Below, piece by piece: positions 1,843 to 1,911 of a stretch of DNA of 39,299 nt. The notes under the pieces are model-generated. The model had not been told where the DNA came from, ran no database searches, and saw only the letters and a program-made list of their open reading frames with translations. The position numbers and the translations under genes were made by a program. How positions within the stretch are numbered: the stretch's first letter is position 1; each line of letters opens with the position of its first letter. This DNA comes from Escherichia phage phiHAO2-2. The stretch lies in sequence record PP079212.1. The stretch is one strand, 5' to 3'.

Positions 1843-1911
1843 AAGGTCTAAGACTCCAAGTGAAAGACCAAAGAGACTTTAAGTGAAAGACTAATAACAA
1901 GGACTTTAAGT

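What the first reader, a model, noticed from the sequence alone, without database searches (positions are those of the whole stretch)
1856..1911. Direct repeats in the RNAP gene leader
The leader between the promoter and the RNAP start contains two copies of AAGTGAAAGAC (1858-1868 and 1881-1891) and two of GACTTTAAGT (1875-1884 and 1902-1911, the second overlapping the start codon region). Repeated elements next to the RBS of the key regulatory gene could be a protein- or RNA-binding site for translational control.
Basis: seen in the sequence. Interest (0 to 1): 0.35.

Follow-up and report, generated by a model that had tools for sequence, protein, structure and literature searches.

The report
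Six-unit repeat array in RNAP leader
The two direct repeats are real and are part of six evenly spaced short units (core GAC, about every 14 bases) that fill the whole untranslated leader between a phage promoter and the RNA polymerase start codon of a K1F-like phage; the array is strongly conserved, but what it does is still unknown.

Summary
The window is a K1F-like T7-group phage (Kayfunavirus). They belong to a larger array: six units (GACYNNARGT plus an A-rich spacer) with GAC at 1838, 1852, 1866, 1875, 1889 and 1902. The array runs from +2 of a consensus phage promoter (1822-1840) to the gene 1 ATG (1912). The last unit is the spacer between the Shine-Dalgarno sequence and the ATG, and GGACTTTAAGTATG is identical to the T7 gene 1.1 start region.

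The leader is under strong purifying selection. In 26 K1F-type genomes 8 of 71 leader sites vary, against 134 of 199 third-codon sites of gene 1. A diverged leader type (SH4-like) is equally constrained. Lineages whose inner leader has turned over still keep six GAC at 9-16 nt spacing.

I found no conserved RNA structure, no Rfam match, no Shine-Dalgarno-like decoys and no identifiable binding factor.

Best reading (about 0.4): an unstructured, A-rich mRNA leader built from repeated T7 "Enh"-type words that promotes or tunes gene 1 translation. Novelty: new variant of a known kind. Interest: moderate.

The parts
1822..1840 (+). Phage RNAP promoter (TTAACTATCACTATAGGAC). The inferred transcription start is G1837.
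   Evidence: Ten matches to this consensus in the window, all on the + strand, against 0.02 expected. In relatives the promoter upstream of gene 1 carries each lineage's own consensus. It is annotated as a predicted promoter in Citrobacter phage CR8. Placing +1 at the first G after TATA is by analogy with T7 (own knowledge).
1837..1911 (+). 75-nt 5' leader of the gene 1 (RNAP) mRNA. It is A-rich (43% A, 37% GC against 50% for the genome) and has no significant structure.
   Evidence: Composition. The 70-nt window 1840-1909 lies in the lowest 1% of GC content in the genome. Fold z = -0.28 for the leader alone and +1.0 for 1836-1930. RNAalifold consensus -3.5 kcal/mol with covariation about 0. 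Nucleotide diversity 0.012 against 0.144 at gene 1 third-codon positions.
1838..1851 (+). Unit 1, GACTCAAGGTCTAA. It contains ACTCAAGGTC (1839-1848), the 5' box of the phage's RNase III-type hairpins, but here there is no matching 3' arm.
   Evidence: GACTCAAGGTC also occurs at 5376, 12514 and 36197, where it begins stable hairpins of -21 to -32 kcal/mol ending in GTGGCCTT(C/T)ATG. The leader has only a weak GGUCU/AGACC pairing.
1852..1865 (+). Unit 2, GACTCCAAGTGAAA.
1866..1874 (+). Unit 3, GACCAAAGA (a short unit). On the - strand, TGGTCTTTCACTTGG (1870-1856) looks like a T7 primase site.
   Evidence: The features of active T7 primase sites are taken from PMC12839067. This is a single site and is not enriched.
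1875..1888 (+). Unit 4, GACTTTAAGTGAAA.
   Evidence: ACTTTAAG is the 8-mer also found in the T7 gene 10 leader next to its Shine-Dalgarno sequence.
1889..1901 (+). Unit 5, GACTAATAACAAG. Its end overlaps the start of the Shine-Dalgarno sequence.
   Evidence: The AAGAC core is invariant in the 12-sequence cross-lineage alignment.
1899..1903 (+). Shine-Dalgarno sequence AAGGA, 8 nt upstream of the ATG.
   Evidence: This is the only strong match to the anti-Shine-Dalgarno sequence in the leader (-5.1 kcal/mol).
1902..1911 (+). It is the spacer between the Shine-Dalgarno sequence and the ATG.
   Evidence: Sites 1899-1911 are invariant in all 26 K1F-type sequences, and unit 6 is GACTT(T/A)AAGT in all Kayfunavirus lineages examined; CR8 (Caroctavirus) ends in a different unit. 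GGACTTTAAGTATG is identical to the T7 gene 1.1 start region.
1912..4593 (+). Gene 1, T7-type single-subunit RNA polymerase (893 aa).
   Evidence: ORF list. Annotated as RNA polymerase in K1F and many relatives.

Best explanation
The repeats are part of a cis-acting leader of the RNA polymerase mRNA. A phage-type promoter directly upstream of gene 1 lets the polymerase transcribe its own gene. It starts a 75-nt, A-rich, essentially unstructured leader made of six evenly spaced units (GACYNNARGT plus an A-rich spacer).

The units are variants of the word ACTTTAAG that T7-group phages use in their translation start regions; the T7 gene 10 "Enh/epsilon" enhancer is the studied example. The last unit is itself the spacer between the Shine-Dalgarno sequence and the ATG.

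The most likely function is at the RNA level. The array keeps the start region open and acts as a landing platform for the 30S subunit or ribosomal protein S1. This would set the translation rate of gene 1 on both the long early transcripts and the short transcripts from the phage promoter.

Shown: the anatomy, the promoter, the strong purifying selection, the persistence of the array across lineages, and the absence of conserved structure. Inferred: that the constraint acts on the RNA and on translation.
For: - The array exactly fills the interval from +2 to the ATG, and its last unit is the start region.
- All six GAC are on the transcribed-sense strand, against a single GTC, and the strand is 64% purine.
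- GGACTTTAAGTATG equals the T7 gene 1.1 start region.
- In T7, ACT[TC]TAAG occurs 19 times on the + strand and 4 on the - strand. Seven of the 19 lie within 45 nt upstream of a start codon, where 6.4% of positions qualify by chance. They include genes 6.5, 7.3, 9, 10 and 17.
- The T7 gene 10 Enh is a 9-nt A/U-rich element that stimulates translation even when moved relative to the Shine-Dalgarno sequence. It is now thought to act through S1 rather than 16S pairing (PMC8748333).
- No significant structure was found: z = -0.28 and +1.0 against dinucleotide shuffles, and RNAalifold gives -3.5 kcal/mol with no covariation.
- Purifying selection: 8 of 71 leader sites vary against 134 of 199 third-codon sites (Fisher P = 8e-17). 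Diversity is 0.012 against 0.144 in the K1F type and 0.008 against 0.184 in the SH4 type.
- The array persists despite sequence turnover. Inner-leader identity is 0.35-0.67 between lineages, yet six GAC remain at gaps of 9-16 nt. GAC enrichment has P = 0.003-0.02 in each lineage.
- The leader is the single genome-wide maximum of ARGAC density in the window, EcpYZU01 and the SH4 type.
Against: - A generic A/U-rich enhancer should tolerate much more variation than is seen, and should not need an invariant GAC at regular spacing.
- The units are not Shine-Dalgarno-like, so they are not simple standby Shine-Dalgarno sites.
- The full 9-mer Enh (TTAACTTTA) is absent.
- In unit 6 the word lies between the Shine-Dalgarno sequence and the ATG, not upstream of the Shine-Dalgarno sequence as in gene 10.
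- Similar GAC/ACTTAAAG units occur in the T7 phiOL leader, which has no gene immediately downstream, so the word is not exclusively linked to translation.
- No expression data exist for this leader.
Confidence: 0.4

Rival explanations
1. One reading: the array is an operator for a dedicated trans-acting regulator. An oligomeric RNA-binding (or DNA-binding) protein of phage or host would bind the evenly spaced GAC units. Because the last unit overlaps the spacer between the Shine-Dalgarno sequence and the ATG, binding would repress or time RNAP synthesis. Such a brake would be useful for a gene that sits behind its own polymerase's promoter.
For: - Six evenly spaced copies of a short invariant core, which is typical of multi-site binding.
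- Very strong constraint on the whole leader.
- One site overlaps the start region.
- The self-promoter creates positive feedback that would benefit from a brake.
- The small gene 0.38 family is present next to the module in all five array-bearing lineages and is absent from T7.
Against: - No factor could be identified.
- gp0.38 has no Pfam domain and belongs to a PHROG of unknown function. It has no relative among solved structures, and its predicted model is of low confidence (pLDDT 61).
- gp0.38 is itself highly variable where the leader is invariant, and its co-occurrence with the array is confounded by shared ancestry.
- The leader has only 2-3 GGA motifs, and these are not in hairpin loops, so it is not a typical CsrA target.
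- No translational repressor of gene 1 is known in T7-group phages (own knowledge).
Confidence: 0.2
2. DNA-level function: the promoter plus the A/T-rich repeated leader is the K1F-group counterpart of the T7 replication-origin module. In T7 the phi1.1A/B promoters with a downstream A/T-rich region form the primary origin, and phi6.5 and phiOR are secondary origins. Transcripts from the promoter would prime DNA synthesis in the easily melted repeat region.
For: - T7 replication starts at phi1.1A/phi1.1B, with secondary origins such as phiOR and phi6.5, and a T7 promoter is essential (PMC8373140). There is an A/T-rich cluster with a GGGTC site in the T7 origin (PMC12839067).
- The three most A/T-rich 70-nt windows of T7 are the leaders of phiOL, phi6.5 and phi1.1B. 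Two or more relaxed words ([AC]CT[TC][TA]AAG) within 75 nt are found at these three leaders and at only two other places in T7, both away from promoters; the strict word ACT[TC]TAAG pairs only at phi1.1B and phi6.5.
- The window leader aligns with the T7 phi1.1B leader along its whole length: score 50 against 31.6 +/- 4.3 for shuffles, z = 2.9-4.0 with dinucleotide shuffles. The two share the terminal 14-mer.
- The window's own phi1.1-equivalent promoter (5355) lacks an A/T-rich leader.
- The second GAC array in the genome follows the phi6.5-like promoter, in all lineages examined.
Against: - The leader is only 63% A+T, against 76-80% in the T7 origin leaders.
- Melting alone does not explain an invariant, strand-specific GAC core.
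- The similarity to phi1.1B is not unique: phi2.5 scores alike.
- Only one good primase-type site is present.
- Strand counts of primase sites show no switch that would locate an origin, in either T7 or the window.
- There are no replication data for K1F-like phages.
Confidence: 0.2
3. The leader is a degenerate or unusual RNase III (or other RNase) processing or stability element. It would descend from the R1 site that T7- and T3-like phages carry upstream of gene 1.
For: - T7- and T3-like relatives have the R1 hairpin at this position and no promoter.
- The leader starts with the conserved 5' box ACTCAAGGTC, shared with three genuine RNase III-type hairpins in the window.
- GACUUU in units 4 and 6 is complementary to AAGGUC.
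Against: - The 3' arm (GTGGCCTTTATGA) is missing.
- The best local hairpin is about 11 bp with three internal loops and about -7.5 kcal/mol.
- Folding is not better than shuffles, and no pairs show covariation.
- No double-stranded stretch long enough for RNase III is predicted.
Confidence: 0.07
4. The repeats are a neutral relic of tandem duplications of the start region, with no function of their own.
For: - The pattern looks like a decayed tandem array whose last copy is the real start region.
- A T3-like relative (L039) has an independent tandem duplication of its gene 1 start region, CTACACACAATGAGG x2.
Against: - The leader varies 10-20 times less than neighbouring synonymous sites in two leader types.
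- The GAC cores and their spacing survive where the rest of the inner leader has diverged to 35-67% identity.
Confidence: 0.03

Closest known systems
T7 gene 10 leader translational enhancer (Enh / epsilon, TTAACTTTA)
   Same: Both are short A/U-rich words in the 5' leader of a phage-promoter transcript. The 8-mer ACTTTAAG is shared (T7 TTTAACTTTAAGAAGGAG; window units 4 and 6). In T7 the word is strand-specific and enriched just upstream of start codons. It is reported to work independently of its exact position (PMC8748333).
   Different: Here the word has a GAC prefix rather than TTA, is repeated six times at about 14-nt spacing, and its last copy lies between the Shine-Dalgarno sequence and the ATG. 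The full 9-mer is absent. Enhancer activity has not been tested.
T7 phi1.1B promoter and gene 1.1 leader (A/T-rich part of the T7 primary replication origin)
   Same: Both have a phage promoter followed by a 75-85-nt A/T-rich leader containing repeated ACYTTAAG-type words at 12-14-nt spacing and ending in the identical GGACTTTAAGTATG.
   Different: This module sits upstream of gene 1, not gene 1.1. It is less A/T-rich (63% against 73-76%). It has six regular GAC units where T7 has three to four looser words. The similarity score is only moderately significant and is matched by phi2.5. Origin activity is unknown.
T7 R1 RNase III site upstream of gene 1
   Same: Same genomic position, between the last early gene and gene 1. 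The 5' box ACTCAAGGTC is typical of the phage's RNase III-type sites.
   Different: No 3' arm and no stable hairpin. A phage promoter is present instead.
Multi-site leader operators bound by oligomeric RNA-binding proteins (for example CsrA GGA arrays and TRAP triplet arrays)
   Same: Several evenly spaced copies of a 3-5-nt core in a 5' leader, with the last copy overlapping the start region.
   Different: The core is (A/G)GAC, not GGA or GAG/UAG. Spacing is about 14 nt. There are only 2-3 GGA motifs and none is in a hairpin loop. No binding protein is known. The resemblance is by analogy only (own knowledge).

Membership tests
T7-group phage-RNAP promoter with transcribed leader | Match to the genome's own phage promoter consensus, on the coding strand | tested here: met
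   Positions 1822-1840 are one of 10 consensus copies against 0.02 expected. They share 20 of 20 nt with the promoter at 38595.
T7-group phage-RNAP promoter with transcribed leader | The promoter co-varies with the polymerase specificity of each lineage | tested here: met
   The promoter upstream of gene 1 has the lineage consensus in EcpYZU01 (CCCTCACTGTAGG), Kc166A (ACTATCACTGTAGG), CR8 (GGAAGGTACACTATAGG) and the SH4 type.
T7-group phage-RNAP promoter with transcribed leader | Transcription start mapped experimentally | not testable with these tools
   +1 = G1837 is inferred from the T7 rule (own knowledge).
T7 Enh/epsilon translational enhancer | The 9-nt sequence TTAACTTTA | tested here: not met
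   Only the 8-mer ACTTTAAG (six bases of Enh plus the AG that follows it in the gene 10 leader) is present, at 1876 and 1903. The closest forms in other leaders of the window are GTAACTTTAA and TTAACTTAAA.
T7 Enh/epsilon translational enhancer | Location in the 5' leader just upstream of the Shine-Dalgarno sequence | tested here: inconclusive
   Unit 4 lies 15 nt upstream of the Shine-Dalgarno sequence. Unit 6 lies downstream of it, as in T7 gene 1.1.
T7 Enh/epsilon translational enhancer | Stimulates translation | not testable with these tools
   Needs reporter assays.
T7-type RNase III processing site | Conserved 5' box (A)CTCAAGGTC | tested here: met
   Present at 1839-1848 and identical to the boxes at 5377, 12515 and 36198.
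T7-type RNase III processing site | Matching 3' arm (GTGGCCTTTATGA) forming a hairpin of about two helical turns | tested here: not met
   No such arm is present. The best hairpin is about -7.5 kcal/mol, z = -0.28, compared with -21 to -32 kcal/mol at the genuine sites.
T7-type replication origin (promoter plus A/T-rich region) | Phage promoter immediately upstream | tested here: met
T7-type replication origin (promoter plus A/T-rich region) | Strongly A/T-rich segment of about 60 bp downstream of the promoter | tested here: inconclusive
   63% A+T, within the lowest 1% of 70-nt windows in the genome, but seven other windows are lower and the T7 origin leaders reach 76-80%.
T7-type replication origin (promoter plus A/T-rich region) | DNA synthesis initiates there | not testable with these tools
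   No replication data. Strand counts of primase sites are uninformative.
Protein-bound multi-site leader operator (CsrA-like) | Several GGA motifs, usually in hairpin loops, one at the Shine-Dalgarno sequence | tested here: not met
   Only two GGA (1837, 1901) in the window and 2-3 in other lineages. There are no conserved hairpins.
Conserved structured cis-regulatory RNA (riboswitch, thermometer or leader of a known family) | Conserved secondary structure with covariation, or a match to an Rfam family | tested here: not met
   RNAalifold finds 0 compensatory pairs. The only Rfam hits are chance snoRNA matches below threshold.

The most novel reading that the evidence does not exclude
The six evenly spaced, strand-specific (A/G)GAC units are a dedicated assembly site rather than a generic leader. 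One version is an operator on which an oligomeric factor shuts off translation of the self-amplifying RNAP gene. The other is the Kayfunavirus primary replication origin, a relocated counterpart of the T7 phi1.1B origin in which the units (six GTC triplets on the complementary strand) organise primer hand-off or loading of the hexameric helicase-primase. Either version would tie RNAP autoregulation, or the start of replication, to a new repeated element placed immediately upstream of gene 1.
Probability: 0.2. Interest if true: 0.7.

Novelty: new variant of a known kind. Interest (0 to 1): 0.45.

Why it matters
Gene 1 is the master switch of T7-group phages. In K1F-like phages it sits behind its own polymerase's promoter, which makes a positive-feedback loop that T7 itself lacks. 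The leader between that promoter and the start codon is as constrained as the protein's non-synonymous sites, and it has a regular six-unit architecture that survives sequence turnover. It therefore almost certainly carries information beyond a Shine-Dalgarno sequence.

Knowing whether it tunes translation, binds a regulator or serves as a replication origin would explain how these phages control polymerase dosage. Several of them, including K1F, SH4-like Salmonella Typhi phages and CR8, are used as therapeutic or engineering chassis. The answer could also yield a compact, portable expression or replication element for K1F RNAP-based synthetic circuits.

Tried and rejected
- **Tandem Repeats Finder** on 1780-1960 found nothing. 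The array is too degenerate for it.
- **Rfam** with a permissive threshold gave only chance snoRNA hits.
- **RNA structure.** Single-sequence folds are not better than dinucleotide shuffles. Mononucleotide shuffles give z = -1.1 to -2.8 in different lineages, but the predicted pairs differ between lineages. RNAalifold finds no consensus structure and no covariation. The quasi-palindromic units (ACUUUAAGU can pair with another copy of itself, as units 4 and 6 do in the minimum-energy fold) explain the weak, shifting pairings.
- **Shine-Dalgarno-like decoy or standby sites.** The anti-Shine-Dalgarno duplex profile shows only the real site. The leader is not enriched over background.
- **Upstream mini-ORFs.** GTG 1860-1886 and GTG 1883-1894 have no Shine-Dalgarno sequence and are not conserved across lineages. 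In the SH4 type the GTG happens to be in frame with gene 1. The - strand ORF at 1848-1964 was rejected because the 14-nt period is not a multiple of 3 and all genes lie on the + strand.
- **Genome-wide motif scan.** A 13-nt weight matrix built from the units gave as many hits on the - strand as on the + strand, many of them in coding DNA. The unit is too low in information to define a genome-wide motif.
- **IMG/VR scan for GGACTTTAAGTATG.** Most hits were chance matches. It only confirmed the word at gene 1 in K1F-like phages and at gene 1.1 in T7-like phages.
- **Metagenome scan for more diverged relatives.** It returned only 16 loci, 13 of type A and 3 of type D, and no new leader type.
- **Promoter half-site idea.** GACTTAAC upstream of several promoters resembles the units, but this is not conserved in other lineages, whose promoters start GATTAAAC.
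- **Primase-site strand switch** to locate the origin gave no signal in T7 or in the window.
- **gp0.38 as a candidate partner.** No Pfam domain, a PHROG of unknown function, no PDB relative, and a low-confidence AlphaFold model. I did not run a fold search because the model is unreliable.
- **Literature.** The K1F genome paper (Scholl and Merril 2005) and Chen and Schneider 2005 are not held in the library. I therefore could not check whether the promoter upstream of gene 1 or its leader has been discussed in print.
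Full report
**What the window is.** The 39,299-bp window is a T7-group podophage of the genus Kayfunavirus (K1F-like). Positions 1700-2100 are 100% identical to Escherichia phage phiYIO1-1 and 99% identical to K1F. The ORF at 1912-4593 (893 aa) is the T7-type RNA polymerase, gene 1.

**Checking the observation.** AAGTGAAAGAC is at 1858-1868 and 1881-1891, and GACTTTAAGT is at 1875-1884 and 1902-1911, directly before the ATG at 1912. Neither word occurs anywhere else on the + strand. In dinucleotide-preserving shuffles of the 75-nt leader, an exact repeat of at least 11 nt appears in 0.3% of cases, and seven repeated 8-mers in 0.005%. Four or five other 75-nt stretches of the genome also hold a repeat of at least 11 nt, so the exact repeats alone are not extraordinary.

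TTAACTATCACTATAGGAC (1822-1840) is one of ten + strand copies of the phage promoter consensus, against 0.02 expected. By the T7 rule (own knowledge) transcription starts at G1837, which gives a 75-nt leader.

**A better description of the repeats.** The two repeats overlap in one central copy, GACTTTAAGTGAAAGAC. With its neighbours it forms six units:

| Unit | Coordinates | Sequence |
|---|---|---|
| 1 | 1838-1851 | GACTCAAGGTCTAA |
| 2 | 1852-1865 | GACTCCAAGTGAAA |
| 3 | 1866-1874 | GACCAAAGA |
| 4 | 1875-1888 | GACTTTAAGTGAAA |
| 5 | 1889-1901 | GACTAATAACAAG |
| 6 | 1902-1911 | GACTTTAAGT, then ATG |

GAC therefore recurs at gaps of 14, 14, 9, 14 and 13 nt, from +2 of the transcript to the start codon.

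- Having four interior GAC is unlikely given the composition (P about 0.01).
- Such even spacing is unlikely under random placement (P = 0.008).
- The leader is the genome-wide maximum of RGACY and ARGAC density: 6 and 5 per 75 nt, against means of 0.53 and 0.33.
- The Shine-Dalgarno sequence is AAGGA (1899-1903). It is the only strong anti-Shine-Dalgarno match in the leader.
- Unit 6 is the spacer between the Shine-Dalgarno sequence and the ATG.

I collected the gene 1 upstream region from IMG/VR, metagenomes and GenBank.

- *K1F type.* Among 26 distinct sequences, nucleotide diversity is 0.015 in 1841-1898, zero in 1899-1911 and 0.004 in the promoter. It is 0.144 at third-codon positions of gene 1 and 0.25 in the upstream gene 0.38. 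In counts, 8 of 71 leader sites vary against 134 of 199 third-codon sites (Fisher P = 8e-17). Variation is high right up to both edges: 24 of 50 third-codon positions in the first 150 nt of gene 1, and 22 of 40 in the end of gene 0.38.
- *SH4 type.* This second, diverged leader type (9 distinct sequences) is just as constrained: 0.008 against 0.184.
- *Between types.* Against the Eclo_IJM/L023 type the leader is 93% identical, while synonymous sites are about 62% identical. Against the SH4-like, Kosakonia Kc166A and Enterobacter EcpYZU01 types the inner leader has diverged to 67%, 59% and 35% identity.
- *The array survives the turnover.* All of these lineages still have exactly six GAC, at gaps of 9-16 nt. 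GAC enrichment has P = 0.003-0.02 in each. All gaps lying within 9-16 nt has P = 0.002-0.008, and the evenness of the gaps has P = 0.0001-0.002.
- *Genome-wide rank.* In EcpYZU01 and the SH4 type the gene 1 leader is again the unique genome maximum of ARGAC density, 6 against a next-best 3. In Kc166A it ties for the maximum.
- *A different genus.* Citrobacter phage CR8 (Caroctavirus, RNAP about 70% identical) has the same promoter-leader arrangement, with three GAC and four (G/C)ACYTTAAG words at 14-15 nt spacing.
- *What is not conserved.* The exact 10- and 11-mers are not the conserved feature. Natural isolates carry GACTCTAAGT, single-base insertions in unit 4, and two losses of a GAC.
- *Caveat.* These lineages share ancestry and are not independent samples.

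T7- and T3-like phages have no promoter at this position. They carry the R1 RNase III hairpin instead. In every array-bearing lineage the promoter upstream of gene 1 has that lineage's own consensus, which argues that it is used.

**What the units resemble.**

- GGACTTTAAGTATG is identical to the start region of T7 gene 1.1.
- ACTTTAAG is the word that abuts the Shine-Dalgarno sequence in the T7 gene 10 leader.
- In T7, ACT[TC]TAAG occurs 19 times on the + strand and 4 times on the - strand. Seven of the 19 lie within 45 nt upstream of a start codon, where 6.4% of positions would qualify by chance.
- The gene 10 element (Enh/epsilon) is an A/U-rich translational enhancer that works when moved relative to the Shine-Dalgarno sequence. 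It is now attributed to S1 binding rather than pairing with 16S rRNA (PMC8748333).
- The first unit begins with ACTCAAGGTC. This is the 5' box of three genuine RNase III-type hairpins in this genome (5374-5418, 12512-12556, 36195-36240), but the 3' arm is absent here.

**Structure.** The leader is not significantly structured. Against dinucleotide shuffles, z = -0.28 for the leader alone and +1.0 with the first codons included. The units are quasi-palindromic: ACUUUAAGU can pair with another copy of itself, and the minimum-energy fold pairs unit 4 with unit 6. This explains the weak and lineage-specific pairings. RNAalifold on 12 distinct leaders gives -3.5 kcal/mol and no compensatory pair. 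There is no Rfam match.

**Most likely mechanism.** The array exactly fills the transcribed leader. It is strand-specific and purine-rich, it ends in the start region, it is built from a word tied to translation starts in T7, and it avoids structure. I therefore favour an RNA-level, cis-acting role in translation initiation of gene 1, as a repeated Enh-type platform for the 30S subunit or S1 (about 0.4).

Two facts argue against a purely generic enhancer. The constraint is nearly site by site, and an invariant GAC recurs at regular spacing. I could not find a partner. The small gene 0.38 family accompanies the module in all five array-bearing lineages and is absent from T7. However, it has no known domain, no solved relative, only a low-confidence model, and is itself highly variable.

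**The main DNA-level rival (about 0.2).** In T7 the phi1.1A/B promoters with their downstream A/T-rich region form the primary replication origin, and phi6.5 and phiOR are secondary origins (PMC8373140; PMC12839067).

- The three most A/T-rich 70-nt windows of T7 are the leaders of phiOL, phi6.5 and phi1.1B.
- Two or more relaxed ACYTWAAG-type words within 75 nt are found at these three leaders and at only two other places in T7, neither next to a promoter; the strict word ACT[TC]TAAG pairs only at phi1.1B and phi6.5.
- The window leader aligns with the phi1.1B leader along its full length, even without the shared 14-mer: score 50 against 31.6 +/- 4.3 for shuffles, and z = 2.9-4.0 with dinucleotide shuffles. 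Phi2.5 scores about the same.
- The window's own phi1.1-equivalent promoter (5355) has no A/T-rich leader.
- The second GAC array of the genome follows the phi6.5-like promoter, in all lineages examined.
- Against this reading: the leader is only 63% A+T, melting does not need a strand-specific GAC, there is a single good primase-type site, and primase-site strand counts do not locate an origin.

**Minor rivals.** A degenerate RNase III or stability element gets about 0.07. A neutral duplication relic gets about 0.03, because the selection data argue strongly against it.

**Comparison with what is known, and verdict.** The element works most like a T7-group promoter-leader module. It is not a member of the Enh family in the strict sense, because the 9-mer is absent. 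It is not an RNase III site, because the 3' arm and the hairpin are absent. It cannot yet be called an origin. I found no description of a six-unit, evenly spaced GAC array upstream of gene 1, but the K1F genome paper is not in the held library, so prior mention cannot be excluded.

I rate it a new variant of a known kind, of moderate interest (0.45).

Noticed in passing
window 5374-5418, 12512-12556, 36195-36240: Three T7-type RNase III hairpins with a conserved 5' box (TAGACTCAAGGTCAT) and 3' arm (GTGGCCTT(C/T)ATG(A/G)TTA), at -21 to -32 kcal/mol. They probably correspond to T7 R1.1, a site before gene 5, and R18.5. No such site precedes gene 1, unlike in T7 and T3.
   Followed up: partly
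window 223-258; T7 (L179) 271-340: The left-end segment TAGACTTAAGGTCTAAGACATGTTAGTCAAAGAC resembles leader units 1-3 (16 of 17 nt identical; GAC at 225, 239, 254). T7 has a tandem 13-nt CTAAAGACCAGAC array at the equivalent place, which is the T7 genome maximum of RGACY density. The function of these left-end arrays is unknown to me.
   Followed up: partly
window 16847-16913 and 38664-38695: Shorter GAC-unit arrays follow two other phage promoters. The phi6.5-like leader has GAC at 16849, 16857, 16869 and 16881, and this is conserved in EcpYZU01, Kc166A, CR8 and the SH4 type. The phiOR-like leader reads AGACTTTAT / AAGACCTTAGG / AGACTCCGAG.
   Followed up: partly
window 1815-1819: Sharp diversity boundary among K1F-type genomes. 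Gene 0.38 (1554-1814) varies at all codon positions (diversity 0.11-0.25), while the promoter and leader are nearly invariant. This looks like a mosaic or recombination junction at the promoter.
   Followed up: partly
window 1554-1814 (gene 0.38): An 86-aa protein family of unknown function (phrog_7066) found only on phage contigs of about 40 kb. A homolog is present next to the promoter-leader module in all five array-bearing lineages and absent from T7. The AlphaFold model is of low confidence (pLDDT 61) and all-helical.
   Followed up: partly
L039 (T3-like IMG/VR contig), about 50 nt upstream of gene 1: An independent tandem duplication of the gene 1 start region (CTACACACAATGAGG x2) downstream of the R1 hairpin in a T3-like phage.
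   Followed up: no
window 1860-1886 and 1883-1897: Two tiny GTG-initiated ORFs (VKDQRDFK* and VKD**) whose stop and start overlap in GTGA. In SH4-type phages the equivalent GTG is in frame with the gene 1 ATG, 15 codons upstream. There is no Shine-Dalgarno sequence and they are not conserved across lineages.
   Followed up: yes
window 1856-1870, - strand: TGGTCTTTCACTTGG fits the three published features of active T7 primase sites: the (G/T)2GTC core, an A/T-rich 8-nt flank, and GG at flank positions 9-10. GACCA is kept in lineages A, B, C, E and F but not in the SH4 type or CR8.
   Followed up: partly
window promoters at 16832, 20657, 25064, 38598 compared with 1822, 5355, 7051, 8031, 19653, 32341: The ten phage promoters fall into two groups by initial transcribed sequence: GGGA (four, before late or structural genes and phiOR) and GGAC/GGAA/GGAT (six, including the gene 1 promoter). 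This is reminiscent of the T7 class III and class II promoters.
   Followed up: no
window 459-488: A strong sigma-70-type early promoter (TTGACA, 18 nt, TAGTAT) containing CCGACTTAAAGTA. It resembles T7 A1 (TTGACTTAAAGTCT).
   Followed up: no
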